A stretch of DNA of 64,000 nt, taken from positions 82,773 to 146,772 of IMG/VR virus record IMGVR_UViG_3300035698_017111; one strand, 5' to 3'. Below the pieces are notes generated by a model that had not been told where the DNA came from, ran no database searches, and worked only from the letters and a program-made list of their open reading frames with translations. Source of the DNA: a virus. Made by a program: the position numbers and the translations under genes. The first letter of the stretch is position 1. Each line of letters begins with the position of its first letter. This document shows, in pieces, positions 328 to 43,854 of the stretch.

Positions 328-1036
328 TTATACGACATTGTATATCTTGTCGAGATCTCCCCTAAGGAATTTCGCTAAAGAAAACTTACCTTCAGGACAC
401 TCAACACGATCTCTTCTATAGTTATAGTTTCTATTATAACCACCACGTTTTCCTTTATTTTGATTCTGAGAGTCATATTGTCCCTTGATGTCTGTGTGTT
501 TTTTCTTCTCACTAATCACAGACATTTTCTTGGATAGTCGTTCAAAAGCTATCTCTTTGTTTTTTCTCTGATCACGAGTATCACAACATTCAACGGTTAT
601 TCCGTCGTATTGCAAACGAACACCAGAGAGAGTTTTATTTCTTTTCTGTCCACCACAACCAGAATCCTTATAGTACGTAACCCTAACCTTTGATTTATCA
701 ATAGTGTTCTCTTCGACTCTATTCTTTTCGACAAGAACGACATTGATCAAAGAAGTTTGGACCCGGCCACGAGTCTCCGTTGGAGGGACTCTCTGGACAC
801 GGTGAACTCCAGGCTCTCTTCAGAACCAGTCTCTACATCCAGGTCCAGTTAATTCTAATTCTGTTTGTTTTGCGGTTTGAGACACAACACGGGCTTTAAT
901 GTTATGTTTTGCAGCATGCTTCAGGTAAGCCTTGAGTAGGTCCTGAGCAAATAGGCGGGAATCCTGACCTCCCTCACCAGGCAAGATTCGAAGATAGAGG
1001 GGGCTAAAGACAACTCCTTTTCGTTTGTGTTTTCAT
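328..1036 (-). CDS. prfA: Class I peptide chain release factor, RF1-type (PxT motif, GGQ), lacking domain 1; needs a +1 frameshift (1004-1009) and UGA readthrough (820-822); about 235 aa
   Basis: SD AGGAG + ATG at 1036 gives MKTQTKRSCL-TAG. The +1 frame continues SPLYLRILPGEGGQDSRLFAQDLLKAYLKHA...GCRDWF*REPGVHRVQRVPPTETRGRVQTS and runs into the tracked ORF 328-750 (SGCGGQKRNKT, RDQRKNK, RNYNY). These are all recognisable RF1 blocks. Confidence 0.88.
1003..1021 (-). promoter_or_regulatory. Programmed +1 ribosomal frameshift cassette (prfB-type, but with UAG)
   Basis: AAA AGG AGT TGT CTT TAG C versus E. coli prfB AGG GGG TAT CTT TGA C: internal SD, 3-nt spacer, CUU-U slippery site, stop codon followed by C. 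Confidence 0.85.
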
Positions 1037-1122
1037 AATTACTCTCCTTTTTAGTATTTCTCATATCAATACGATTTTCTTTATGCAAATACCTCGTTAC
1101 ATGATTTATCGTATACTACAGG

Positions 1123-1599
1123 ATGGAGAACGATATGACAAGTGAAAAATGGGAACCACTGAAAGATTTAGGACTCGATACTAATCCATGCCAAGAATGT
1201 GGTGGACGATGCTGTAAAGAAGGAGTCCATATAGAACAAGGGAAATTCGTTCCTGGTCTAACGGAGCAAAGCATTAGATGGGCAGAGTGTTGGGAAGGTG
1301 TTGAAACATATGTGTACTCTACTCAACTTGGAAAGCTTTGGGGAATCAAGATACCAAAACTACAATGTAAACATATTGGCCAAGACGGTGGTTGTTCAAT
1401 ACACGAGAACAAACCACCTGCCTGTAGGGAATACTTCGGCTTGAAGCCAACTGGACCAGATCCAGACTGTCTTTTGATTCGTGAACTATTACGACAAGAC
1501 AAAGTCCCATACGAAGATTGGGTAAAACAACTTTGGCCAAAAGGATTACCACTGACCAAATGGTTGAAAGAGTTAGGAATTGTTCTTATACCGAAATGA
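1123..1599 (+). CDS. YkgJ-like CxxCxxCC cysteine-cluster protein
   Basis: CQECGGRCC...CKHI...CSIHENKPPACREY; the ATG at 1135 after GGAG is the probable start. Confidence 0.75.
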   Translation: MENDMTSEKWEPLKDLGLDTNPCQECGGRCCKEGVHIEQGKFVPGLTEQSIRWAECWEGVETYVYSTQLGKLWGIKIPKLQCKHIGQDGGCSIHENKPPACREYFGLKPTGPDPDCLLIRELLRQDKVPYEDWVKQLWPKGLPLTKWLKELGIVLIPK

Positions 1600-2398: not shown

Positions 2399-2818
2399 AT
2401 GGTATTTAACCTGAAAGCAGAAAAGGGTAAGAAAGTATTCCTTGGTGGAACATGTAATGAATCTACCTGGAGAGATGATCTGATTCCAGATCTGGAAATC
2501 GATTTCTTTGACCCAGTTGTTGACGATTGGGATGACGCAGCATATAAGATAGAGTTGAAGGAAAGAGAAACATGTAATTTCTGCCTCTATGTTATTACGC
2601 CAAAAATGACTGGAGTCTATTCTATTGCTGAAGTTGTTGATGATTCGAACAAAAGACCAAAGAAGACCGTATTCTGTTTTCTGAAAAAAGATGGTGATAA
2701 AACGTTTGACAAAGGACAGGTCAAGTCGTTAGAGTCAGTACAGAAGATGGTTGTCGATAACGGTGGACAGTCTTTTGAGTCGTTGGAAGAAGTGGCCAAG
2801 CATCTAAACTCTCAGTAA
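2399..2818 (+). CDS. Nucleoside 2-deoxyribosyltransferase-like protein
   Basis: KKVFLGGTCNESTWR...FFDPVVDDW...LYVITPKMTGVYSIAEVVD. Confidence 0.8.
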   Translation: MVFNLKAEKGKKVFLGGTCNESTWRDDLIPDLEIDFFDPVVDDWDDAAYKIELKERETCNFCLYVITPKMTGVYSIAEVVDDSNKRPKKTVFCFLKKDGDKTFDKGQVKSLESVQKMVVDNGGQSFESLEEVAKHLNSQ

Positions 2819-3123: not shown

Positions 3124-3243
3124 GACTGGAACGGATAGTCATTACAGTGATAGCTCATTTTGGTAGAGCATCGGCCTTCAACGCCGGTTGTTATAGGTTC
3201 AATTCCTATTCACCCAAACAAACTGACTCTCAATAATCCAGTC
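3124..3243 (+). ncRNA. Closed-stem ncRNA 2 carrying a tRNA-like domain (3147-3213) with anticodon TCA
   Basis: Stems GACTGGA/TCCAGTC and AGTCA/TGACT; GAAC-N10-TACAG. D arm TAGCTCA..GGTAGAGC, anticodon arm TCGGC-CTTCAAC-GCCGG, T arm ATAGG-TTCAATT-CCTAT. The acceptor stem is only 4 bp (GTGA/TCAC). Confidence 0.8.
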
Positions 3244-3493: not shown

Positions 3494-3621
3494 TTGCTAG
3501 GAACGGCACGTTGATACAGACAAAATAGCTCAGCTGGTAGAGCTGTTGGTATTCTAACCAATAGGCGTAGGTTCAATTCCTACTCTTGTCACCTTTACTC
3601 AACTGGTAATCACCCTAGCAA
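3494..3621 (+). ncRNA. Closed-stem ncRNA 3 carrying a tRNA-like domain (3519-3591) with an 8-nt anticodon loop
   Basis: Stems TTGCTAGG/CCTAGCAA and GTTGA/TCAAC; GAAC-N10-TACAG. Acceptor GACAAAA/TCTTGTC, D arm TAGCTCAGCTGGTAGAGC, GTTGG-TATTCTAA-CCAAT, T arm GTAGG-TTCAATT-CCTAC. No encoded CCA. Confidence 0.8.
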
Positions 3622-3750: not shown

Positions 3751-5421
3751 ATGACTACAGCACTAGCACCAAAAACAAGTAAGATGGTTACTGATCTGAC
3801 CGAGAGAGCTTCGATTCAGGTTCCAGAAAGCGTGGACACATGGTTGAAAACCGTGGATGTTGACACTGTCGCATCTATTGTGGATCGTTTCCTCGACGTT
3901 TGTACCACAGTCACTGGACGAGCCACCCACTACAACTCCAAAGCCGATCAAGAAAGACTCATGGCAGGATTGCATACTGAGCTTTTCGACGTTGACCGTG
4001 GTATGTATGGTCTTCTAGTGTGCCTTGAGGGTGCAATGGATATCAGTAGACAAATGGCCATGTCCAGATTGCTTGATAATCCAAGAGAAGGTGAGGCTTT
4101 GCTTACAGTACATCAGGAAAATCAACTCATCAGTCACCTTGCACTGAGCATGCCTCCACAAAGAATGTTGAAACTCTACAAGAAATTCGTAGAGCAAAAG
4201 GTCAACAACTCTCGTGCTCGTAAACTGATCCTTCGAACGATTATTCAGCAACCAGTTGGAAGACTGGAGCATTGGGCGGTCATGTATCGTTCCAAGTTGG
4301 CTTCGGCAATCCGACATGCACTGGGACTCAAGTCCAGTTACGTTCTGGAGAAGACTCTTGAGAGGAAACTCTCCGGTAAGAGAATGTCTACAGACCAGAA
4401 TAAAACTATTCGTAAACTTGTTGGTAAGTTTATGAAAGAGATCTACGATAACAATGATACCAAGAACAAAAAGTTGGAAATCATTGGCTTTATTCTCGGC
4501 ATTGAAACCGGAATGGAATTGAAGAAAACCAAGGCATATGTTGCTGTGAAGGAAGGAAATTTCGCAGCTGGTAAAGTTCTTCCTCTCGAAACAATGGAAG
4601 GTCTCAGAAGCGTTTACCACCCAAAGAAAACGGCCAAAGACATCCTTGAACTAACCAAGGATACTATGACCAAGGGTCAGAAGATGGTTCGACAGAGACA
4701 GGCCAAAGAAGTTGGTGTTAAGATTGACCTAGATCCAAAGCAGTACGATCCTGTCAAACTTTACATCTACTGTTACGAGCAAGGTATCGATGGCCCAATC
4801 ATGAAGGCTCTTGAAGAGAAGGCACAAAGTGCCGTTAAGAACCTCCCCCTTCGTTTTGGGAAGATTGGCATCCTGCTTGACAACTCAGCTTCGATGTTTG
4901 GCCACAAGACACAAGGAAACCGTCCAATGGCAGTTGCCTTGTCGATTCGTGACTATCTGTCGGCAGCAGCCGATGAAGCAAATGTCGAACTCGTCAACAG
5001 ACCTGCGAGATTGACAAAGAAGAGAAAAGCTCTTCCTCTTCCAGAGGGTGACACTTCTCTCGCACAAGCTCTCGTTCAAATGCTTAAAGAAAAGAACGAA
5101 GCTATCTTTGTTATCAGTGATGGTTATGAGAACGCTCCGGCCGGACGTTTTGCCGAAGTTCTCAAGTTGGCCAGACAGGTCGGTGTGAAGACACCAGTGT
5201 ACCAGATCAGTCCTGTTGCAGCAGCAGAAGCATCAGGTATCAAACATCTGGCACCGGGGCTCGTTGAAGCTCTTCCAGTCTCGAACGCAAATAGCCTTGG
5301 AACAACATTGTTCAAGGCACTGTTGGTGGCACGTCCCAAAGAAGGACTTCGTGTTCTTATTGGAATGGGCATGAAACAGCTTGATAACATTAAGAAGATC
5401 GATTACGAAGGGAGAAAGTAA
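3751..5421 (+). CDS. Ro60/TROVE-like helical protein with a C-terminal vWA domain
   Basis: vWA MIDAS elements ILLDNSASM, GDTSL and VISDGYEN follow a long basic helical N-terminal region; 556 aa; next to tRNA-like ncRNAs. Confidence 0.7.
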   Translation: MTTALAPKTSKMVTDLTERASIQVPESVDTWLKTVDVDTVASIVDRFLDVCTTVTGRATHYNSKADQERLMAGLHTELFDVDRGMYGLLVCLEGAMDISRQMAMSRLLDNPREGEALLTVHQENQLISHLALSMPPQRMLKLYKKFVEQKVNNSRARKLILRTIIQQPVGRLEHWAVMYRSKLASAIRHALGLKSSYVLEKTLERKLSGKRMSTDQNKTIRKLVGKFMKEIYDNNDTKNKKLEIIGFILGIETGMELKKTKAYVAVKEGNFAAGKVLPLETMEGLRSVYHPKKTAKDILELTKDTMTKGQKMVRQRQAKEVGVKIDLDPKQYDPVKLYIYCYEQGIDGPIMKALEEKAQSAVKNLPLRFGKIGILLDNSASMFGHKTQGNRPMAVALSIRDYLSAAADEANVELVNRPARLTKKRKALPLPEGDTSLAQALVQMLKEKNEAIFVISDGYENAPAGRFAEVLKLARQVGVKTPVYQISPVAAAEASGIKHLAPGLVEALPVSNANSLGTTLFKALLVARPKEGLRVLIGMGMKQLDNIKKIDYEGRK

Positions 5422-5423
5422 AA

Positions 5424-6485
5424 ATGGCTAAGACGACTACCAGCATCAGAGAGGTCCTGAGAGGGACCAAAACGGGTCGTATGCAGTCTGTGGGTAGAAT
5501 GCAAGTCATTCCACTCATACTGGATATGCCCGAGGACAACAGGTTTACCTCACCAGAAATTCTCTGGATTAAGAACCGTGATTACGGTAGCATTAATCTA
5601 GACAACAGAGGTGATGTGACAACGATTGCACCAGTGGGTGCTACGTATCTCACCAAACAGTCAGCACAGGATCATGCCATCATGAATGCTGAGCTTGTTA
5701 AGGCAAAATCTGGAGTTGAAGTAGATACGGCAGCTTGTGTCCAGTCAAGCCAAGGTGGAACTATTCGTAACGAGCAAACCGAACTCTTGATTCTGCCATA
5801 TGCCCTTCGAGAAGCTTCGATTGGTATGAGAAAGACCAAGAGATACAATAAACTATGGGATGATATCGGCAAGTTCAACAAACTCGCTAAATGTGGATCT
5901 GGTAGCGAGCATCTCGAATACTTCGTAAAAACGCATGAGTCCACAATGGATGATTTCGTTGCACAGTTCGAGATCGTTCCTGGACAGGTCGGAGCAATTG
6001 TTCTGATTGATGGTGAAGTCTACGGAGTTGAAAGAGCACCTAACTGTCAGTACTGGGAAGGTGTCTGGTCTCCACTGATTCGTATGTGTTACGGATCGCA
6101 GGCTATCATCGCAGATCTTGAAGACAAGGCAAAGAAGGGTCCACGTACCAGTAACGCAATGCTAAATCCCCTTCCTTCTGATGTTGAGGATCTCGATGAT
6201 ATCGAGGAAGCCCTCAAGGAAGCAGACGAACAGTATTCTGAAGCTTCTATGGATGTTGTTCGCAACCTTCTGGACGATGAGTTCAAGAGAGAGGATGTCG
6301 CAAGACAATCTTTCCTCACTGACGAAAAGGAGACTGTGAATCTCGACAGAGTGACCGTAAGCAACGACCAGTTCGTTGGACAGGTCTTCCAAGACGGTCC
6401 TCAGGTTTGTTACGCATCAATGGTGACGAAGAAAGGCTGGAAGAAACATGCCAGCTGGAGAGCGGCACCGGCGTTTGATGCCTGA
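5424..6485 (+). CDS. ARPP-like (DUF6569-related) domain protein
   Basis: MQVIPL...QDHA...AACVQSSQGG...LWDDI...GQVGAIVLIDGEVYGVE pattern, recalled from ARPP-type proteins; starts 2 nt after the vWA stop. Confidence 0.55.
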   Translation: MAKTTTSIREVLRGTKTGRMQSVGRMQVIPLILDMPEDNRFTSPEILWIKNRDYGSINLDNRGDVTTIAPVGATYLTKQSAQDHAIMNAELVKAKSGVEVDTAACVQSSQGGTIRNEQTELLILPYALREASIGMRKTKRYNKLWDDIGKFNKLAKCGSGSEHLEYFVKTHESTMDDFVAQFEIVPGQVGAIVLIDGEVYGVERAPNCQYWEGVWSPLIRMCYGSQAIIADLEDKAKKGPRTSNAMLNPLPSDVEDLDDIEEALKEADEQYSEASMDVVRNLLDDEFKREDVARQSFLTDEKETVNLDRVTVSNDQFVGQVFQDGPQVCYASMVTKKGWKKHASWRAAPAFDA

Positions 6486-14500: not shown

Positions 14501-17161
14501 TCTTCCTTCAGGAGTATTTGCCTGATCGGAACTATTTAAACCGGCTTCGGATAACTGAAACATAATAGTTGTTTCGTTGCTCTGCACGTCTGAGATATTT
14601 GCTGCATGAATTTTTTTCCATGCATCTCTGATGGAAGCTTCTCTTGATTCCTCAACGGTTTCATCTTTAACCTGATTCTTGGCGATGTTTTTAAGTTCTT
14701 CAATCTTCTCATCGGCAAGCTTCGAAACTTCGTCGGACAATGCCTGTGGGTCTTCGTACATGACCTTGATTGTCTCTTCAAGAAGTGGGCTAATTGACTC
14801 TACATCATCAATTTGTTCCGAGATAGCCTTTTCGGCAATGTCGGAAACGTCATTAATAGTAAGTTGAGCTTTCTTAGAAATGCTCTCTTTCGGAGACTGT
14901 ATTCCGGCGACCTTGATCGGAGCAGCACTGAGAGTTTTCGGAGAAATTCTTTCACTAACGACAACATTGGAGAGACCAGTAAGTATTGCTTGTATGACAG
15001 TATCGGCAGCAGATGCGTTATGTGGGGAAGCGTCGGAAGCGATTGGACTGTCTGTACCTTGACGATGTCCTTCGAGCTGTCCTTCGCCAACTTCATCTGC
15101 GGCTTTGCCGAGACGATCTTTGCCTTCAAACTGTTCTTCAGTAATAGGCAATTTATCACCGTCACGAGCTTCTTCATCCCATCTATCTGCAGTTCCACCG
15201 TTTTCAGCAAGCTGACGTTCACCGACTTCTTTTGGTGTAGCTTGATCTGATTCGTCACGGTCTGAACCGAAGTTTGTTGGGCGAGAAGTGTCGAGCTGGG
15301 TTTCTGTGACTTCAAGGTTTTCTTTAATACCGTCAGGTCTTACCCTGCTGAAATCACCCTTACCAGTTTCTGGAGTCTGTTTGATGTCTTCCAACTGTTT
15401 TTCAGTTGTGACACCAACTTGGCCAGTGGCCAAAGACTCATCATTCTTTCTTTCGAAGTTCCCACTCAGTCCCTCAAGTTGACTCTCTCCGACTTCGTCA
15501 ACAGGAGGTGCATTGGTTAGGAGGGCTTCTTGTGTAATTTTTTGGTCTTTTGCACTCATTTTAATCTCTCCATTTTCAAAATATTTGTTTGACAACTGTT
15601 CGATTAATCTTCCAGCCATAACTTGCGGATTTACTTTCATCAAAGAAACAAGCTCATCTCCCAGTTGTTCTGCAGTAAGAATTGCAACTTCTTTTCCACT
15701 AACAGATCCCTTAATCCCCTTGTTGGGGTCAAGAGTCACAGAGTAAGGGCCATCCACGATAATCATTGGTTCTTCCTCTGAAGCTTGCTTCTCCAAAATG
15801 TCAGCAAATTTTCCACTAATCTGGTTGCTTGCAACCATTCTTGCTTTTTCTTTGGAAGTAGGCATATTATCGGTTCTCCTTGAACACTCTGTTTTAAGGG
15901 CAGTAATCCCTCTAACTAAGTTATTTAATTCTGACTTCAATGTACTTAATCCCTCTATGTAATTAGCTGTTTTGATATTTCTTTCACTCGACATAGTCGG
16001 TGTAAGAGGGGGTGCTGCACCTGGGGCAGCGGGAGCGGGTGCTGCGGGAGCTTGTGCTGCGGGAGCTGCAGGAGCCGCCGGAGCTGAATCTTCTGGAGTT
16101 GCTTCTGGCATTCCTAATCCTCCACCAGCATCTCCACCACCTTGCTCTGGAGTGGCATTTTCTTCTCCACCTTGATTGGCAAATCCTGCTTCCACCAGGT
16201 CGAGGATCAGGTTCTGTAGATCCGAAAGCAGGCCACCAATCTCTTCTAAGAACTCAAAGTCAACATCTTTTGAGCCCAATATTTGTTCAGCAACTTCTCT
16301 AAGTAGATCAAGGGACCTGTTGAGTTTGTCAACATCTTCTCCTCTTGCGGTTCTACTAATAGAAGCAACTTTCTTCAATCCGACTAAACTATCATTACCT
16401 TCCCTCAGAACACTGGTAAGTTTATCAAGTAGTTCAGGTCCAGTAAATACATTTTGAACGGTACAGTTTTCACATGCACCGTCTGTTACAGCACTGAGTT
16501 CAATAAACTTAATGCCATAATTTGATTCATAGACCTTCTTACCCTTAATTGTTTTACCTTTATGACTTCGAACGTGTGAGCAGTAGTCAGCTTCAGTGGA
16601 TGCTCTATTCTTACAAACAGAACAAACACTTTCTTTTACCGCACAACCCATGGAAACGTCATTAATGTATCCTTGACGTATACCTCTTGCTAATTCTGGA
16701 TACGCTTTAGCGTCAACCATTGTGTCGGTATAGATACAATGGTTATCTAAATCGTAGAATGCAGAAACGATTTTTCCCTTGGCTTGTTCAATGTCATCAT
16801 TTTTATGGTTGGTAAAGAAGGCACAATTGACAAAAGTCTCAAAAGCCTTCAGACCAGTCTCTTCACAAACTGATAAAAGTTCTTCTTCTGAGAAATAATC
16901 ACCATTATCATTCGCACCATGAAACATTTCACCAGTGGCATCTGATCCACCAGCATCAATGGCACGGGCACGAAAAATAATCCATTCTTCTGGATTCCTG
17001 TCCTCTAGTTCGGAAACTAGATTAAGTGAATTAGAAGCATGGAGAAGGTTTTCACTGATATCATGCTTAATGAATGCCATTCTCTTAGGCCCATGAAGCA
17101 ATATGTCCCGATCAATTGTAGATGAGGCAATAATTCTAAGATTGGCTGTCTTATAAATCAT
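11564..17161 (-). CDS. Giant capsid maturation protease / scaffold fusion (1865 aa)
   Basis: N-terminal ANDNGDYF...FTNHKN...KGKI...DVSMGC..CSVC..YCSH...FIELSAV prohead-protease-type block, followed by Zn ribbons (CPLC, CPQC) and long acidic low-complexity regions. Confidence 0.7.
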   Translation of the reverse strand: MIYKTANLRIIASSTIDRDILLHGPKRMAFIKHDISENLLHASNSLNLVSELEDRNPEEWIIFRARAIDAGGSDATGEMFHGANDNGDYFSEEELLSVCEETGLKAFETFVNCAFFTNHKNDDIEQAKGKIVSAFYDLDNHCIYTDTMVDAKAYPELARGIRQGYINDVSMGCAVKESVCSVCKNRASTEADYCSHVRSHKGKTIKGKKVYESNYGIKFIELSAVTDGACENCTVQNVFTGPELLDKLTSVLREGNDSLVGLKKVASISRTARGEDVDKLNRSLDLLREVAEQILGSKDVDFEFLEEIGGLLSDLQNLILDLVEAGFANQGGEENATPEQGGGDAGGGLGMPEATPEDSAPAAPAAPAAQAPAAPAPAAPGAAPPLTPTMSSERNIKTANYIEGLSTLKSELNNLVRGITALKTECSRRTDNMPTSKEKARMVASNQISGKFADILEKQASEEEPMIIVDGPYSVTLDPNKGIKGSVSGKEVAILTAEQLGDELVSLMKVNPQVMAGRLIEQLSNKYFENGEIKMSAKDQKITQEALLTNAPPVDEVGESQLEGLSGNFERKNDESLATGQVGVTTEKQLEDIKQTPETGKGDFSRVRPDGIKENLEVTETQLDTSRPTNFGSDRDESDQATPKEVGERQLAENGGTADRWDEEARDGDKLPITEEQFEGKDRLGKAADEVGEGQLEGHRQGTDSPIASDASPHNASAADTVIQAILTGLSNVVVSERISPKTLSAAPIKVAGIQSPKESISKKAQLTINDVSDIAEKAISEQIDDVESISPLLEETIKVMYEDPQALSDEVSKLADEKIEELKNIAKNQVKDETVEESREASIRDAWKKIHAANISDVQSNETTIMFQLSEAGLNSSDQANTPEGRAAIRNWLSGSILKGKEDVSLNNIEIDQVGNVKATATFTSTVEKEHTPQSYDSRNNMQEAPQPGNKMVDQAPAMEEPVGTELAAGTKEKLERLAQSPAGTTMPAPQGAPDMGGMPAPGAGVESLGAPAPEGLDELGPEDGDMDEYAAKPFGSICPLCASDDVDAMGGDYKCNSCGLEYSVAVNLDILNPEVIGDAGIAGGEPGGEEEEMEPDAVDETNEMINAQPAGMPAPAAPGGADQMGAPGAVGGANDWIKTASLQFSMELPADRLIRGAELVTDTKAIFDPENDSDEISKIALSPIGTICPQCGSQKVAFKDSFGACVSCGCQTHVSASREEDKMKVILTVEPNLSISEKVNSVGGYAVNAGCDNCDEVKDALHKILSHREQIQKIAAVLGDNPWLDCMSDQVATGYADEDAIEICASIKDLRKTAQFGEENFEDTDKEEVDSVDFEEDIDETEEDAVDFGDDDGLEEIFDDEPVDELGEELGEGSGSFNSDSIEKIELSITDTEGNEVEVELPVAGGEGSEDGDPEEILEITETFETDEEPPMLEDEGPGEDVEEDVIIDEAPEPEAEEVGIMNSLFSDGLEMEVEEDELETDTEPMTEEDIHNVSKNTTELLRGGQVGSQTQSAGMNLDLSAVAQAISMPLDTEADVPRDEDQGIVDDGEVDLDTNDSENEAKEMHGTAAGSTLAEEDVVQGTERGVEVQEPTPQEETPKEASTNEWMKVARNRDGTGPDGDGPGTGRGKPCKTCKKCPCECDPKCKKDDKDDKDDKTASKDKKVVKAQTSEVGQTEPVDSEQAEKEEPTGDKLDVPRKEEKAKPEIDVKRPDVDSPTKVREEAYDLGPGGKDLHTDVVPRDGSGDGIGGESVSFDEESGDKQTSGNPDSYVQEFQDDNQIAPTPVSSEDNHLGAAVANAIKKVAQSKGVEESNLEGMIEDDFVFVMDLESGEMYRLPMEENSMEEEVKTETETQPEATVEAE

Positions 17162-17173
17162 ATGTGATTCTCG

Positions 17174-17311
17174 CTATTGTATTTCAGCAGCAGTCGTAAA
17201 GTCAGTTACGAGGGCAGAGGCATGCTCTGTTCCTAATAACTGCTTTAGATACTGATGAAGCTTCACCCTATCCCCATCAGATAATTCTGAAATTTTGACG
17301 AATCCACCCAT
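17174..17311 (-). CDS. 45-aa structural-module protein not in the ORF track (MGGFVKISELSDGDRVKLHQYL...)
   Basis: AGGAG SD; paralogous to the adjacent 56-aa ORF. Confidence 0.75.
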   Translation of the reverse strand: MGGFVKISELSDGDRVKLHQYLKQLLGTEHASALVTDFTTAAEIQ

Positions 17312-17326
17312 TGATGGGTTCTCCTA

Positions 17327-17497
17327 TTAAGCCTTTGTTTCTTTCGAGGAGGCCTCAACATCGATAGCTTTTCCATCTGGTTTGAAGTCAGTCGTAAGGG
17401 CACCTGCGAATTCACTGCCCCACAATTCACCCCAATACTTACGGAGTTTTGTTCTGTCTTTTCCAGAAAGCTCAGATACTTTAACAAACTGTTCCAT
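17327..17497 (-). CDS. 56-aa structural-module protein not in the ORF track (MEQFVKVSELSGKDRTKLRKYWGELWG...)
   Basis: AGGAG SD; paralogous to 17174-17311 and to the second half of 28462-28944. Confidence 0.78.
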   Translation of the reverse strand: MEQFVKVSELSGKDRTKLRKYWGELWGSEFAGALTTDFKPDGKAIDVEASSKETKA

Positions 17498-34010: not shown

Positions 34011-34325
34011 ATGTCAATTGAAATTGATTCTGATGAGTTTTACGAGAAGACAGAAGAAGATGGACTTGTGATGGTTGACTGTTATACTGAATACTGTGGA
34101 CCATGTAAGCAAGTCAAAAAGATTCTGCCAGAGATTGAAGAAGCCGTCGATGGATTAACAATATTGACTATTGATATTCAAGAAAACGTAAGTGTTGCAC
34201 AGGAACATAATGTAATGTCTGTCCCGACGTTTTTGATCTTCCAAGATGGTGATCTGGTTGATCGTTTTTCGACACCTCAAGACAAAGAAGGCATTGTAGA
34301 GAGACTTAATTCTTTAGTGGAGTGA
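34011..34325 (+). CDS. trxA: Thioredoxin
   Basis: YCGPCK active site and SVPTF motif. Confidence 0.9.
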   Translation: MSIEIDSDEFYEKTEEDGLVMVDCYTEYCGPCKQVKKILPEIEEAVDGLTILTIDIQENVSVAQEHNVMSVPTFLIFQDGDLVDRFSTPQDKEGIVERLNSLVE

Positions 34326-35479
34326 TTGAAATGTCATACAAAATACTGCAGAACATACCTGTCTGGGGCGTTGGCTTAGACGAAAACGCAATGGTACAGA
34401 TACAGAGATGCCTTATCAATGGTAAGCATGCTGCTCTAATGGCTGACCATCACCAAGGATATAGCATGCCAATCGGTGGTGTCGTTGCTTACGAGGGACT
34501 TGTATCTCCAAGCGGTGTGGGTTACGACATTGCTTGCGGCAACAAGGCCGTTAAGCTAGAGATGAATGCCAAGTATGCAAGAGAAAACATAAAGGCACTC
34601 ACTGATTCTATTTTCAATGGCATCCCAATGGGCAAGGGTATCTGTAACTCAAAGGTTATCGACCATGAAGTCTTCGATAATGATTTGTGGAACGAAAAAC
34701 CATGCTCAGACTCACTAAAAGTAGCAAGAGAACAACTCGGCTCTCTTGGTGCTGGAAATCACTATATCGATATCTTTGTCGATGAGGAAGAATCCGTGTG
34801 GGTTGGAGTCCATTGTGGATCAAGAAAGTTTGGACACAATATTGCGACTTTCTTTTTGAGAGCTACCGGAGCAAAAGATGGTATCCATGCTTCTCCATGT
34901 CTCTTGAAAGAAGATTCCTATTTTGGGAAGATGTATATTGACTGCATGAACCTTGCGGGTGAATATGCATATGCTTCTCGTAATTGGATGTGCGATGAGA
35001 TATCGAAAATTCTTGGTTCGAAAATCACAGAAGAGGTTCACAATCACCATAACTTTGCTTGGAAGGAAAAGTTATCGGAAAAAGAATACTGGGTTGTCCG
35101 TAAGGGATCTACTCCAGCACGTCCTGGACAGAAGTGTTTTATCGGTGGTTCTATGGGCGATATATCCGTAATTGTTGAAGGAACGGAATGCGAAGAAGCA
35201 AGACTATCAATGTATTCTGCTCCACACGGTGCTGGACGTGTCATGGGGAGAATGGAAGCACTCGGTAAGATCGCCAAGGATGGCACTGTAAAAAGAGAGC
35301 CAAAGGTCACTCAGGAAATGATGGATTCTTGGCTTAAAGATAAAAACGTATATCTACGTGGTGGGGGACGAGACGAATCGCCACATGCATACCGTCGTCT
35401 TCCAGAGGTTATCGAACAACATGATTACCTTAAAACTCTACACACGCTAACCCCAATTGGGGTTTGTATGGCCCCTTAA
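34322..35479 (+). CDS. rtcB: RtcB RNA ligase
   Basis: MADHHQGY..PIGGV, VGYDIACG, LGAGNHYI, HCGSR, HNHHN, RKGST, HGAGR, DESPHAYR. Confidence 0.95.
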   Translation: MIEMSYKILQNIPVWGVGLDENAMVQIQRCLINGKHAALMADHHQGYSMPIGGVVAYEGLVSPSGVGYDIACGNKAVKLEMNAKYARENIKALTDSIFNGIPMGKGICNSKVIDHEVFDNDLWNEKPCSDSLKVAREQLGSLGAGNHYIDIFVDEEESVWVGVHCGSRKFGHNIATFFLRATGAKDGIHASPCLLKEDSYFGKMYIDCMNLAGEYAYASRNWMCDEISKILGSKITEEVHNHHNFAWKEKLSEKEYWVVRKGSTPARPGQKCFIGGSMGDISVIVEGTECEEARLSMYSAPHGAGRVMGRMEALGKIAKDGTVKREPKVTQEMMDSWLKDKNVYLRGGGRDESPHAYRRLPEVIEQHDYLKTLHTLTPIGVCMAP

Positions 35480-41091: not shown

Positions 41092-41490
41092 GGGCTCGTA
41101 CTGGTTTCGACGGGAAGCAGAACGGGAAAAGCTGCAAGCCGAGCATGTCAGATCCATCTCGATAAACTGGTCTGTCAACAATAGCTGACGAAGCTATGCC
41201 AATCGCTGCCTAAGAGAACCTTAAGCAGTCGCCCTCTCTAAGTTCCGTCTGTAACGAAGAAAAGGGCGTCATCAAACAGACTCGTTCAGAGGTCTACTCC
41301 TGGGGTATCTGAACTAAAAAGCACAGGACCGCAATAACCGAATGGTAACGACAAAACGTCAGACGGCTGACGGTCGAATGAGTTGTTACAGCCATGGGGA
41401 GCGGTTACTGAAAGTGTAGCAGCCTAAGCTTGTAGACGCTTTTTCTAGACTCTTTTCGGACGGGGGTTTCGATACCCCCCGAGTCCACCA
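41092..41490 (+). ncRNA. ssrA: tmRNA; predicted tag (A)DEAMPIAA
   Basis: 5' GGGCTCG..TGGTTTCGAC and 3' GGGGGTTTCGATACCCCC-CGAGTCC-ACCA with a G3-U pair. Resume context ATAGCT-GAC; tag ORF at 41187-41213; TTGACA..TATGAT promoter upstream. Confidence 0.95.
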
Positions 41491-42084: not shown

Positions 42085-42534
42085 ATGAAATACGTAGCCA
42101 TGTTATTGATCAGCATGCTCTTGGTCGCATGTGCTGGAACTGGAGCCGGTCTTAAGGTCTATGAGGTAATACAACAGGATGGAAACCCAACACCTGTTTT
42201 GATTAAGAGTGGATTTTACAAATCTAGAAACGATGTCTCTCTTACCCTTATGTTTGATCCAAGATCAAATTTTGCAATGGTAGACTTTAGAAGCTTGTCT
42301 TCACCAGTCATAAGAGCTAAAGGTGATGCGTACTCTGATGTATTGGGTGCAAGTGGAAATGCTCTTTCCGTATTCCTCAAGGGATATCTTGCATTCCAAA
42401 GTGGTGGAATGGCGGCACTTGAAGCAGAGGAAGCAAAGCTTATTGATCTGGAAGACAACGATAAAGACACTACACATACTCTAAGATTACAGTCCATGCA
42501 GGGGATGTCTCTACCAGACATCAAGAAAGACTAG
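42085..42534 (+). CDS. Putative lipoprotein
   Basis: Signal peptide with an LVAC lipobox. Confidence 0.65.
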   Translation: MKYVAMLLISMLLVACAGTGAGLKVYEVIQQDGNPTPVLIKSGFYKSRNDVSLTLMFDPRSNFAMVDFRSLSSPVIRAKGDAYSDVLGASGNALSVFLKGYLAFQSGGMAALEAEEAKLIDLEDNDKDTTHTLRLQSMQGMSLPDIKKD

Positions 42535-42537
42535 AAG

Positions 42538-42891
42538 ATGTCGATACTGTCAACAATATTATGGATCGTGGGAATGCTTCTCATAGTAGCATCTCTTGTA
42601 ATAAATGCTCTTGATCTTAAAAAAAGAAACCTACAGCAGCCATTCAACGATCCATATTTTCCAAAAAAGAACATGCCACCCAATGTCAATGGTTGGAGAT
42701 GTCTTTATGTGTCATGTATGTTCTTGTCTTCTCATTCTCTTATGAAAATTTTGATTAACGATAATGTTGTCTTATCCTGGATAATGTTGTGTGCATATAG
42801 TTCTGGATTTGTAGTATTTTTTCTTATTGCTTCGTTTCTAAATAAAGAAAATAAAACCATAGTCAAGAAAGATGAAGGTGAAGAGTCATGA
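42538..42891 (+). CDS. Membrane protein
   Basis: Three hydrophobic segments. Confidence 0.55.
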   Translation: MSILSTILWIVGMLLIVASLVINALDLKKRNLQQPFNDPYFPKKNMPPNVNGWRCLYVSCMFLSSHSLMKILINDNVVLSWIMLCAYSSGFVVFFLIASFLNKENKTIVKKDEGEES

Positions 42892-43127
42892 TAATATTAC
42901 TCACATTAACAGCAATATGTTTCATTTGTACTATATTTTCATTGCTTAACGCACGTCTTGTCAATACACTGATATTCGGATTTCTAACAGTTGCAGGAAT
43001 AGCCACAACATTTCTTTGTGCCATTGGGAAGATTGTATTTATGATCTTCAGCCTAAAAGCATTTGTCGGAATCATCTTGTTGGTAGCTGTTGTTGTAGTT
43101 GTGCGAAAGACAGTATTCAATAGATGA
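42888..43127 (+). CDS. Small membrane protein
   Basis: Highly hydrophobic; ATGA overlap. Confidence 0.55.
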   Translation: MIILLTLTAICFICTIFSLLNARLVNTLIFGFLTVAGIATTFLCAIGKIVFMIFSLKAFVGIILLVAVVVVVRKTVFNR

Positions 43128-43128
43128 T

Positions 43129-43854
43129 TTAGTCTTTTGTTTCTTCGTCTTCATCAGAATCCAATTCTTTCTTTACGTCTTCCAATGGAATGAGATCCGC
43201 ATCGCCATTCTCAACATCTTCTACCATTTTGTCCAGATCATCAAATAATTCTTTTGATTCCTCTGGTCCACCATAGAAACTAATATCAAAATAAATTGCG
43301 TCAAGAACGTCGAGAAAAGAGAAGGTACTCTCACTTTTAATAAGAACAGGAGTCGGTTTTTTATAATCAGGATTATCTTTGCTATGATAGATAATAACTT
43401 CTTTGTTTAGACGAACCTCATGATTTAGAACATCACGGATACTTCCGCTTATAGACCACGGACAATCATCTTTATTGATATTGATTCCGTGAAATCCAGT
43501 ATAGAGGTCAAATGATTTATAATCATCAAGATCCCAAGCTTCCCCACCCCAATATACTTCTAAGTGATCGATGTTTTTAAACTTATCTTCTTCCTTGTCT
43601 ATCTCTTCGTGCCAATCGTCAATATGACACCAACAATATTGGCCGAGGAAAGTAGTAAGCATTTCATCTTCATCTACAGATATCATGATGTCTCGAAGAG
43701 TGACTCCTTCTTCGATCTCACAAGTCTCTCTCAGATAATGAAATGGCAAATCCATTTTTTCTAGAATAAAATCTGCATATTCATCATCATTTCTTTTTAC
43801 AATATAGAAGCCATCTTTTTTGATAACGACACTGTCTGTTACGTAGTTAGCCAT
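43129..43854 (-). CDS. Acidic hypothetical protein
   Basis: 241-aa ORF ending LDAIYFDISFYGGPE, coupled to the upstream gene. Confidence 0.65.
   Translation of the reverse strand: MANYVTDSVVIKKDGFYIVKRNDDEYADFILEKMDLPFHYLRETCEIEEGVTLRDIMISVDEDEMLTTFLGQYCWCHIDDWHEEIDKEEDKFKNIDHLEVYWGGEAWDLDDYKSFDLYTGFHGININKDDCPWSISGSIRDVLNHEVRLNKEVIIYHSKDNPDYKKPTPVLIKSESTFSFLDVLDAIYFDISFYGGPEESKELFDDLDKMVEDVENGDADLIPLEDVKKELDSDEDEETKD

What the first reader, a model, noticed from the sequence alone, without database searches (positions are those of the whole stretch)
328..1036. Phage RF1-type release factor with a prfB-style +1 frameshift cassette re-tuned to UAG
Seen: the ORF track finds only the GGQ half (328-750), but the gene starts at ATG 1036 behind AGGAG and stops after 10 codons at AGG AGT TGT CTT TAG C. 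Shifting +1 yields RF domain 2 (ILPGEGGQDSRLFAQDLLKAY) and the RF1-specific PxT region (HRVQRVPPTETRGRVQTS). Established: bacterial prfB (RF2) autoregulates with AGG GGG TAT CTT TGA C, which has the same SD-3nt-CUU-stop-C geometry but uses the RF2-specific UGA; RF1 reads UAG. Inference: this is the mirror-image circuit, in which the phage makes its own RF1 only when UAG termination is inefficient. The protein also lacks RF domain 1, like PrfH, yet has a PxT motif. I do not know of a described RF1 autoregulatory frameshift.
Basis: partly seen in the sequence, partly recalled or inferred. Interest (0 to 1): 0.93.

Follow-up and report, generated by a model that had tools for sequence, protein, structure and literature searches.

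The report
Doubly stop-gated phage RF1-type gene
A 147-kb phage carries a shortened RF1-type translation-termination factor that can be made in full only if the ribosome slips one base forward at CUU-UAG-C and then reads through an internal UGA; relatives keep both devices, and I found no paper describing them for an RF1-type gene.

Summary
On the minus strand, ATG 1036 opens a 10-codon leader that ends in AGGAG-TTGT-CTT-TAG-C. This has the same register as the E. coli prfB cassette. The +1 frame encodes RF domains 2-4 with PPT and GGQ motifs. That frame also carries an in-frame TGA (822-820), so a 235-aa protein needs a +1 slip and a UGA readthrough.

Evidence that both devices are real:
- 14 of 17 clade loci (47-57% identity, independent assemblies) keep ATG + 6-13 codons + GGAG(G)-N3-CTT-TAG (9) or CTT-TGA (5).
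- Nine of these have no in-frame start codon.
- 15 of 17 carry one in-frame TGA, at six different positions. At three of these, the nearest homologues have Trp.
- The genome is otherwise standard-code: TGA ends 38 of 164 genes.

The protein is RF1-like by HMM, PDB sequence search and fold, and it lacks domain 1. It is not PrfH.

More distant IMG/VR phage relatives hold CTT-TGA/TAG/TAA slips inside domain 2, or TGA gates. The general theme is therefore expression gated by failed termination. Strict RF1 autoregulation is plausible for this UAG version but is not shown.

This scan has already reported the same device on at least eight other genomes. The papers I could search deny any prfA frameshift. 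The nearest analogue is the Mimivirus eRF1-like gene.

The parts
1113..1141 (-). Sigma-70-like promoter candidate (TTGTCA-17-TAGTAT), about 77 nt upstream of the ATG
   Evidence: This is a consensus match only: 4 sites were found in the region against 3.1 expected, so the evidence is weak.
1044..1049 (-). Shine-Dalgarno AAGGAG for the leader ORF, 7 nt before ATG 1036
   Evidence: Read directly from the sequence. Relatives also have GGAG-type SDs before their leader ATG.
1004..1036 (-). Zero-frame leader ORF: ATG, 9 further codons (MKTQTKRSCL), then TAG
   Evidence: Relatives have leaders of 7-14 codons ending in R-R-[S/C/Y]-L.
1003..1018 (-). Programmed +1 frameshift cassette: internal SD-like AGGAG (1018-1014), spacer TTGT, slippery CTT (1009-1007), TAG (1006-1004) and 3' C (1003)
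   Evidence: GGAG lies at -8..-5 relative to CTT, the same register as in E. coli prfB (AGGGGG TAT CTT TGA C). The cassette is conserved in 14 of 17 clade loci. It occurs once in the window against 0.10 expected.
823..1005 (-). +1 frame, first part (61 codons): the first strand of domain 2, the GEGGQDS helix-alpha5 tip and the following strands
   Evidence: P0081 residues 1-61. Pfam PCRF covers profile positions 102-194 of 194. AF2 pLDDT is 92-97 over this part.
820..822 (-). In-frame TGA (context UGA-A), probably read as Trp
   Evidence: Five other unique relatives have TGA in the same alignment column (six loci). P0003, P0005, P0008 and P0014 have Trp there. It is the only in-frame TGA in a gene of this genome.
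331..819 (-). +1 frame, second part (163 codons): decoding loop with PPT (786-778), GGQ (654-646), the long helix and domain 4
   Evidence: Pfam RF-1 E = 4e-17. RF1-type RNYNY / RTYNF-like C-terminal motif.
328..330 (-). Terminal stop TAA

Best explanation
The gene encodes a 235-residue class-I release factor of RF1 type. It has domains 2, 3 and 4 only. It keeps the PPT tripeptide, the Gln before it, and the GGQ motif.

Proposed decoding path:
1. Ribosomes start at ATG 1036 and translate ten codons.
2. With CUU in the P site and the poor-context stop UAG-C in the A site, they pause. The nascent-mRNA SD-like AGGAG pairs with the 16S rRNA tail.
3. Either RF1 terminates, releasing a 10-residue peptide, or peptidyl-tRNA-Leu re-pairs from CUU to UUU. 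That slip puts the ribosome in the +1 frame, as in prfB.
4. Sixty-one codons later it meets UGA-A. RF2 terminates there unless the codon is read through, most likely as Trp by tRNA-Trp.

Only ribosomes that pass both gates make the factor. Output therefore rises when termination at UAG (RF1, including the phage factor itself) and at UGA (RF2) is slow.

Shown: the gene anatomy, its conservation, the RF1-type sequence and fold, and the standard code of the genome.

Inferred: the slip itself, the Trp insertion, the dependence on RF1 and RF2, and the release activity at UAA/UAG.
For: - Anatomy.
- Cassette conservation: it keeps its register in 14 of 17 clade loci from independent assemblies at 47-57% protein identity. 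The leaders differ in length and sequence.
- No alternative start: nine relatives have no ATG/GTG/TTG in the RF frame upstream of the GEGG motif.
- Internal TGA: one is present in 15 of 17 loci, at six different positions. At three of these (the OWN column, DS*LF, NP*RAF), the closest homologues have Trp.
- Stop context: across the wider family, 39 of 41 internal stops are TGA, always followed by A or C. Terminal TGAs of the same genes are followed by T in 15 of 21 cases (Fisher p = 1.4e-10).
- Genetic code: code-11 ORFs cover 94.6% of the genome, and TGA ends 38 of 164 genes. TAG-C ends only 2 of 137 genes. No gene ends in CTT-TAG or CTT-TGA.
- RF1 type: NCBIfam RF1 152 bits, RF2 108, PrfH 48. 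PDB sequence search RF1 94.8 bits against RF2 72.8.
- Fold: the AF2 model has pLDDT 90.2. It matches ribosome-bound RF1 at TM 0.88-0.89, against 0.68 for PrfH.
- Tree: the short phage factors group with RF1 against an RF2 outgroup, SH-aLRT 99.
Against: - There is no experimental evidence for the slip, the readthrough or the release activity.
- In 5 of 14 clade cassettes, and in most cassettes of the wider family, the stop is UGA, although the proteins keep RF1-type motifs. Autoregulation by the factor's own specificity therefore cannot be the general rule.
- In this genome, UGA-A is also a common genuine stop context (12 of 28 TGA stops). The context alone does not mark a leaky site.
- The His of the conserved RxHTS stretch is Gln here (RVQTS), as in some relatives. 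Exact codon specificity is therefore uncertain.
- Two gates in series predict a very low yield.
Confidence: 0.7

Rival explanations
1. The gates are sensors of the host's release factors, not an autoregulatory loop. The phage factor would be a back-up terminator, made only when host RF1 (UAG gate) and RF2 (UGA gate) both fail. Such failure could come from overload late in infection, from a host defence, or from a phage-imposed block of RF2. Its main job would be to keep UAA and UAG termination going.
For: - UGA, which an RF1-type factor should not read, is the commonest gate in the family: 39 of 41 internal stops, and most slip sites.
- Gate type changes between close relatives: L002/L004, L048/L018 and L027/L036.
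- 77% of this phage's genes end in TAA or TAG.
- The genome also carries a tmRNA and RtcB, so translation rescue is a theme.
Against: - For this gene the slip site is UAG-C, which the factor itself should read. Negative feedback therefore follows automatically if the factor is active.
- Nothing shows that RF2 falls during infection.
- The phage's own 38 TGA stops would suffer if it did.
Confidence: 0.3
2. The two gates are fixed attenuators. They hold expression of a potentially toxic factor at a very low constitutive level and have no sensing role.
For: - RF overexpression reduces fitness (PMC12421855).
- Gates are interchangeable in kind and position, as expected if only the leak rate matters.
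Against: - A weak promoter or SD would give the same result without costly recoding.
- The full prfB-type stimulatory set is kept: SD at fixed spacing, CUU, and a poor-context stop. In prfB this set gives RF-dependent frameshifting.
Confidence: 0.12
3. The factor is a rescue or repair factor of PrfH/ArfB kind, not a stop-codon terminator. It would act with the phage's RtcB, tmRNA and Ro60-like/Y-RNA-like locus on damaged or stalled ribosomes.
For: - It lacks domain 1, like PrfH.
- RtcB is present in the genome.
- The Ro60-like locus lies 2-5 kb away (note e1-5785146).
- A tmRNA is present.
Against: - The PrfH model scores 47.6 bits against a cut-off of 166.65.
- Fold match to PrfH is TM 0.68, against 0.88 for RF1.
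- The PxT loop and the helix-alpha5 tip are retained.
- RtcB lies 34 kb away, not in an operon with this gene.
Confidence: 0.08
4. The gene is an artefact or is dead: a single-base assembly error plus a nonsense mutation. Alternatively, the protein starts at TTG 984 after termination-reinitiation.
For: The standard ORF list shows only fragments. TTG 984 lies in frame.
Against: - Both features recur in independent assemblies.
- No other disruption is present, and conservation along the whole frame is strong.
- Nine relatives have no in-frame start at all.
- TTG 984 has no SD, and starting there would delete the conserved first strand.
Confidence: 0.03
5. Dedicated phage RNAs decode the gates. 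The tRNA-like element with anticodon UCA (3145-3216) would read the UGA. The tRNA with an 8-nt anticodon loop (3519-3593) would cause the +1 shift, for example at the leader's AGG or at UAG-C.
For: - These are the only two tRNA-like genes in the 147-kb genome, and they lie 2.1-2.6 kb from the gene.
- Any +1 event between 1032 and 1004 enters the RF frame.
Against: - The UCA element has only a 4-bp acceptor stem and sits inside a Y-RNA-like scaffold (note e1-5785146).
- No such tRNAs lie within 3 kb of the gene in 15 relatives.
- The prfB-type cassette needs no special tRNA.
Confidence: 0.05

Closest known systems
Bacterial prfB (RF2) autoregulatory +1 programmed frameshift (SD-N3-CUU-UGA-C; Craigen and Caskey 1986; Baranov et al. 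2002; Prince, Lin and Feaga 2025, PMC12421855)
   Same: It lies in a class-I release-factor gene. It has a short upstream ORF, an SD-like element in the same register, a CUU slippery codon, a stop followed by C, and a +1 shift into the main frame.
   Different: - The gene is RF1-type, not RF2.
- The stop is UAG. None of 8,164 prfB motifs has TAG.
- The site precedes domain 2 directly, because domain 1 is absent.
- A second gate (in-frame UGA) follows.
- Relatives use UGA, UAG or UAA, and place the slip at other positions.
Mimivirus R726 / Megavirus mg280 eRF1-like gene, needing UGA readthrough plus a +1 frameshift (Jeudy et al. 2012, PMC3521657)
   Same: It is a virus-encoded class-I release-factor gene with two internal stops. 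One is a UGA readthrough, predicted to insert Trp. The other is a slip at UAG (UAA in Megavirus)..
   Different: - That factor is of eukaryotic/archaeal type, in a giant virus of amoebae.
- The order there is readthrough first, then frameshift.
- Here the factor is bacterial RF1 type, in a phage, and the frameshift comes first.
RF1 genes of TGA-recoded phages ('code change module', Borges et al. 2021 preprint, 10.1101/2021.08.26.457843)
   Same: A phage-encoded RF1 in a setting where UGA decoding matters.
   Different: - Those genomes carry in-frame TGA throughout their late genes, and their module genes are written in standard code.
- Here the genome is standard-code and the RF gene alone holds a TGA.
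- That paper reports no frameshift.
PrfH (RF-H), the domain-1-less release-factor homologue paired with RtcB2 (Baranov et al. 2006, PMC1586002; PNAS 2022, PMC9304027)
   Same: It lacks domain 1 and keeps GGQ.
   Different: This factor keeps the PxT decoding loop. It scores far below the PrfH model cut-off, its fold is closer to RF1, and it is not adjacent to rtcB.

Membership tests
Bacterial RF1 (PrfA; NCBIfam NF001859 / TIGR00019) | Four-domain architecture of about 360 aa that passes the equivalog cut-off | tested here: not met
   The match covers profile positions 107-336 of 347 only. It scores 152.5 bits against a cut-off of 400. No domain 1 is found elsewhere in the genome.
Bacterial RF1 (PrfA; NCBIfam NF001859 / TIGR00019) | PxT tripeptide with the preceding Gln, and the GGQ motif | tested here: met
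   VQRVPPTE and SGCGGQ are present. G118, G119 and Q120 are invariant in A3.
Bacterial RF1 (PrfA; NCBIfam NF001859 / TIGR00019) | Closer to RF1 than to RF2 in sequence, fold and phylogeny | tested here: met
   152 against 108 bits; 94.8 against 72.8 bits; the top 16 hits are RF1; it groups with RF1 against an RF2 outgroup, support 99.
Bacterial RF1 (PrfA; NCBIfam NF001859 / TIGR00019) | Peptide release at UAA and UAG | not testable with these tools
   Needs an in vitro release assay.
prfB-type programmed +1 frameshift | An early in-frame stop with the main ORF in the +1 frame and no alternative start | tested here: met
   Nine relatives have no in-frame start.
prfB-type programmed +1 frameshift | CUU before the stop, an SD-like element about 3 nt upstream, and C after the stop | tested here: met
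   AGGAG TTGT CTT TAG C, with GGAG at -8..-5 as in the relatives' GGAGG-N3-CTT.
prfB-type programmed +1 frameshift | The stop is UGA, the codon specific to the encoded factor (RF2) | tested here: not met
   The stop is UAG here and in 9 of 14 clade cassettes, and UGA in the other 5. UAG is the codon specific to RF1-type factors, so the logic may be preserved while the codon differs.
prfB-type programmed +1 frameshift | Frameshift efficiency falls as the factor's activity rises (autoregulation) | not testable with these tools
   Needs reporter assays with RF1 and RF2 titration.
PrfH (TIGR03072) | Passes the PrfH model, has an altered decoding loop, and lies next to rtcB2 | tested here: not met
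   It scores 47.6 bits against a cut-off of 166.65. The PxT loop is kept. RtcB is 34 kb away. Fold match is TM 0.68.
Stop-codon-recoded (TGA to Trp) phage genome | In-frame TGA in many genes, and TGA not used as a stop | tested here: not met
   TGA ends 38 of 164 genes, and code-11 ORFs cover 94.6% of the genome. Other candidate TGA read-throughs proved to be separate genes or non-coding sequence.
Stop-codon-recoded (TGA to Trp) phage genome | A functional opal suppressor tRNA | tested here: inconclusive
   A tRNA-like element with a CUUCAAC anticodon loop lies at 3145-3216. It has only a 4-bp acceptor stem and no CCA end.
Mimivirus-type doubly recoded release-factor gene | A viral class-I RF gene that needs one UGA readthrough and one +1 slip at a stop | tested here: met
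   compared with PMC3521657. The order of events is reversed, and the protein is of bacterial type, so this is an analogy and not homology.

The most novel reading that the evidence does not exclude
The gene is a two-input sensor of termination failure. Its UAG slip site reports RF1 activity and its UGA gate reports RF2 activity. The phage would therefore make its own RF3-independent, domain-1-less terminator only when both host factors are failing. Across large phages, the kind, number and position of the gates (UGA, UAG or UAA; slip or readthrough) would be retuned repeatedly to the host factor that limits that phage. A bolder extension is that the only two tRNA-like RNAs of this genome (anticodon UCA, and an 8-nt anticodon loop) help open the two gates.
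Probability: 0.3. Interest if true: 0.88.

Novelty: new variant of a known kind. Interest (0 to 1): 0.8.

Why it matters
- **A stated negative would fall.** Programmed +1 frameshifting at a stop codon is the textbook control of RF2. A 2025 survey of over 12,000 bacterial genomes says it is absent from RF1 genes and never uses UAG (PMC12421855). A conserved UAG version in an RF1-type phage gene, chained to a UGA readthrough, would be the first RF1-side counterpart.
- **A second viral example.** After Mimivirus, it would be a second, independent case of a virus gating its own release factor with two recoding events.
- **Phages and termination.** It suggests that large phages monitor and top up the host's termination capacity. 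This bears on how stop-codon reassignment starts in phages.
- **Annotation.** Gene callers split these genes into fragments, so phage release factors are under-counted.
- **A ready reagent.** The cassette is a natural UAG-responsive +1 switch that can be tested directly in reporters.

Tried and rejected
The DNA of the closest database proteins (P0002-P0033) could therefore not be fetched. I used the single metagenome scan and the single genome scan instead.
- **IMG/VR with the single protein** found no relative. tblastn against GenBank phages found nothing above 39% identity.
- **Genome-wide TGA recoding** is rejected. The 343+607-codon TGA-joined frame at genome positions 14600-17455 is two genes, the second an AAA+ ATPase. 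The frame at 42406-43356 looks non-coding after its TGA.
- **Code test on the flanks of relatives.** My coverage-based test did not discriminate between codes.
- **A separate domain 1 or a second RF gene** in the genome was not found.
- **PrfH membership** is rejected.
- **Start at TTG 984 or termination-reinitiation** is rejected.
- **Motif against stop identity.** There is no correlation between the cassette stop (TAG or TGA) and the tripeptide motif. Nearly all proteins are PPT. L091 alone has SPT with a TGA cassette.
- **Host inference.** One relative (L102) lies on a 120.7-kb contig binned as Candidatus Saccharibacteria. One phage protein of this window found no match in that genome, so this gives no usable host evidence.
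- **RNA structure.** I did not test for a structure downstream of the UGA, because the UGA position differs among relatives.

Full report
**1. What is in the sequence**

All features below lie on the minus strand.
- ATG 1036 follows AAGGAG (1049-1044) by 7 nt. It opens a ten-codon ORF, MKTQTKRSCL, closed by TAG 1006-1004.
- The last 16 bases read AGGAG TTGT CTT TAG C.
- Relative to CTT, GGAG occupies -8 to -5. This is the register of AGGGGG TAT CTT TGA C in E. coli prfB (from my own knowledge; the consensus CTT_TGA_C with an upstream SD is given in PMC3711429).
- The +1 frame is open from 1032, because TGA 1035-1033 closes it upstream. It runs to TAA 330-328.
- Its only canonical start is TTG 984. 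That codon has no SD and lies two codons before the GEGG motif.

The TGA explains why the ORF list shows two pieces, 820-984 and 328-750. Read with one +1 slip and TGA as Trp, the product is 10 + 225 = 235 residues.

**2. What the protein is**

- Pfam finds the C-terminal half of PCRF (profile positions 102-194 of 194) and the RF-1 domain.
- NCBIfam ranks RF1 (152.5 bits, profile 107-336 of 347) above RF2 (107.6) and PrfH (47.6). All are below their equivalog cut-offs.
- The PDB sequence search gives RF1 94.8 bits and RF2 72.8 bits.
- An AlphaFold2 model built on 46 sequences has mean pLDDT 90.2.
  - It superposes on ribosome-bound RF1 at TM 0.88-0.89, rmsd 2.2-2.7 Å.
  - RF2 gives TM 0.86-0.87. 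PrfH gives 0.68, at rank 50.
- RF1-type motifs are VQRVPPTE, SGCGGQ and a C-terminal RNYNY stretch matching RTYNFPQ. The His of the RxHTS stretch is Gln here.
- No domain 1 and no second RF gene exist in the 146,772-bp genome.

It is therefore an RF1-type factor with domains 2-4 only. It is not PrfH.

**3. Are the two interruptions real?**

The metagenome scan returned 15 close loci at 47-57% identity. The genome scan returned one more, L102. With the window's own gene the clade has 17 loci, 15 of them unique.

The cassette:
- Fourteen loci have ATG, then 6-13 codons, then GGAG(G), three bases, CTT and a stop, placed directly before domain 2.
- The stop is TAG-C in nine: this window, L082-L086, L089, L090 and L092.
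- It is TGA in five: L088, L091, L093, L094 and L102.
- Leader peptides differ in length and sequence apart from the R-R-[S/C/Y]-L imposed by the cassette.
- Nine relatives have no ATG, GTG or TTG in the RF frame upstream of the GEGG motif. This excludes an in-frame start or reinitiation.
- L081, L087 and L095 start in frame without a cassette.

The internal TGA:
- Fifteen of the 17 loci carry exactly one in-frame TGA in domain 2.
- It occurs at six different positions: DS\*LF, GYD\*IV, GSA\*IQ, NP\*RAF, NAL\*SF and F\*[RK]E.
- At three of these (F\*[RK]E, DS\*LF, NP\*RAF), the closest database homologues have Trp. Examples are FFWKE, DSWLFAN and NPWRVF.
- No locus has any other disruption.

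Sequencing error and pseudogene decay are therefore excluded.

**4. Genetic code of the phage**

- A greedy code-11 ORF map covers 94.6% of the genome with 164 genes. Their stops are TAA 90, TAG 36 and TGA 38, including ATGA overlaps.
- The other long TGA-joined frames are shadows, two adjacent genes, or non-coding sequence.
- The RF gene is therefore the only gene with an in-frame TGA. The 'TGA-recoded phage' reading (Borges et al. preprint) does not apply.
- Among 137 genes of 100 aa or more, TAG-C is the rarest stop tetranucleotide (2 genes).
- No gene ends in CTT-TAG or CTT-TGA.

**5. The wider family**

IMG/VR yielded 80 more distant loci at 28-43% identity. After excluding five full-length RF1/RF2 genes, these are again short factors, nearly all with the PPT motif.

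Three configurations occur:
- The zero frame encodes M..IEIRAAEGGxDAKLLV...RRxL. Then comes CTT-TGA (about 20 loci), CTT-TAG (about 11) or CTT-TAA (1). Domain 2 continues in the +1 frame, so the slip lies inside domain 2.
- **In-frame start with internal stops.** These genes have one or two in-frame TGAs (about 30 loci) or, rarely, a TAG.
- **Leader cassette or no device at all.**

On a tree rooted on RF2:
- The short factors group with RF1 (SH-aLRT 99).
- The window's clade is distinct (16 rows, support 96).
- Its TGA-leader lineages branch below a crown group of TAG-leader genes (quick search).
- Sister pairs differ in device: L002/L004, L048/L018, and L027 (TAG) against L036 (TGA) in the same column.

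Stop contexts:
- Of 41 internal stops in unique sequences, 39 are TGA. All 41 are followed by A or C.
- Terminal TGAs of the same genes are followed by T in 15 of 21 cases (Fisher p = 1.4e-10).
- Two caveats apply. The rows are related, and in this phage UGA-A is also a frequent genuine stop (12 of 28 TGA stops).

**6. Mechanism**

The cassette has every element that drives RF-dependent +1 slippage in prfB. These are a weak stop in the A site, CUU-to-UUU re-pairing, and an SD-like element at the critical spacing.

For this gene the stop is UAG-C, which an RF1-type factor should read. If the factor is active, negative feedback on its own synthesis follows. This is inference.

The UGA gate cannot be read by an RF1-type factor. 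It therefore makes output also depend on weak RF2 action or on efficient tRNA-Trp misreading. It may simply attenuate expression.

UGA is the commonest gate family-wide, although the proteins are RF1-type. The general principle is therefore 'made when termination fails', not strict autoregulation.

A domain-1-less RF should still release peptide codon-specifically but escape RF3 recycling. This rests on my recollection of truncation studies by Mora et al. 2003, which I did not check here.

**7. Comparison with what is known**

[quoted passage not shown] It reports that 34 prfA pseudogenes show no conserved elements, and that none of 8,164 prfB motifs has TAG.
- GeneTack clusters list RF2 only.
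- My searches for phage release-factor frameshifting found no paper.
- The nearest analogue for the double gate is the Mimivirus/Megavirus eRF1-like gene. It uses a UGA readthrough, predicted to insert Trp, followed by a slip at UAG or UAA (PMC3521657). Its authors called that combination unique.
- This scan has itself already reported the short RF1-type factor with CTT-stop slips on at least eight other genomes. I re-derived the family-level result independently on IMG/VR DNA.

New for this window are three points: the leader-position cassette, the near-universal second UGA gate in its clade, and the demonstration that the genome is standard-code.

**8. Verdict**

This is a real, conserved, doubly recoded gene. 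It is a new variant of a known kind of device. Specialist interest is high. The regulatory logic is inferred and can be tested directly.

Noticed in passing
window 3145-3216 (+): A tRNA-like element with a canonical opal-suppressor anticodon loop (CUUCAAC, anticodon UCA). It has only a 4-bp acceptor stem and no CCA end. It is one of only two tRNA-like genes in the whole 147-kb genome and lies 2.1 kb from the only gene with an in-frame TGA. An earlier agent read it as cargo of a Y-RNA-like scaffold.
   Followed up: partly
window 3519-3593 (+): A full cloverleaf tRNA (Rfam 59.7 bits) with a 7-bp acceptor stem and an 8-nt anticodon loop, UAUUCUAA. This is an Arg(UCU)-like loop with one extra base, the architecture of classical +1 frameshift-suppressor tRNAs. 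The RF leader contains an AGG codon inside the window where any +1 event enters the RF frame. No such tRNA lies near the relatives' genes.
   Followed up: partly
window 41092-41490 (+): A phage-encoded tmRNA (Rfam RF00023, 141 bits, full length). ARAGORN gives the tag peptide DEAMPIAA.
   Followed up: no
window 34322-35479 (+): An RtcB RNA ligase gene (PF01139, 220 bits). With the tmRNA, the Ro60-like/ARPP locus (3751-6485) and the release factor, the phage carries a sizeable set of RNA-repair and translation-rescue genes.
   Followed up: partly
L083 1871-1946: In one relative, a tRNA-Trp(CCA) gene lies 85 nt after the UGA-gated RF gene. Its D-stem has a U11-A24 pair. This is the configuration created by the Hirsh UGA-suppressor mutation, cited in PMC3521657 for the Mimivirus case.
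   Followed up: partly
L081, L084, L088, L095 (flanks): In several relatives the RF gene sits inside or beside tRNA gene arrays (Val, Phe, Asn, Ile, His, Met; Gln x2, Asn, Lys; His; Gly). None of these is a suppressor.
   Followed up: no
L102 (CAYYLG010000001.1, 120,681 bp): A contig binned as a Candidatus Saccharibacteria MAG carries the same gene at 54% identity, with GGAGG-TGT-CTT-TGA-C and an internal TGA. It may be a mis-binned phage genome, or it may hint at the host.
   Followed up: partly
L010-L080 (IMG/VR relatives): The Leu codon (CTT) of the mid-gene slip site aligns with the column where other relatives have an in-frame TGA or Trp/Phe/Ile (the conserved 'G-W' site of RF domain 2). 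The slip sites may therefore have evolved from simple TGA gates, or the reverse.
   Followed up: partly
L091: This relative has an SPT tripeptide (a hybrid of PxT and SPF) together with a CTT-TGA cassette. By the tripeptide-anticodon rule, such a motif might read both UAG and UGA.
   Followed up: no
window 1123-1599 (+) and 2399-2818 (+): The divergent neighbour of the RF gene is a CxxCxxCC zinc/iron-chelating domain protein (PF03692). A nucleoside 2-deoxyribosyltransferase-like gene (PF15891) follows.
   Followed up: no
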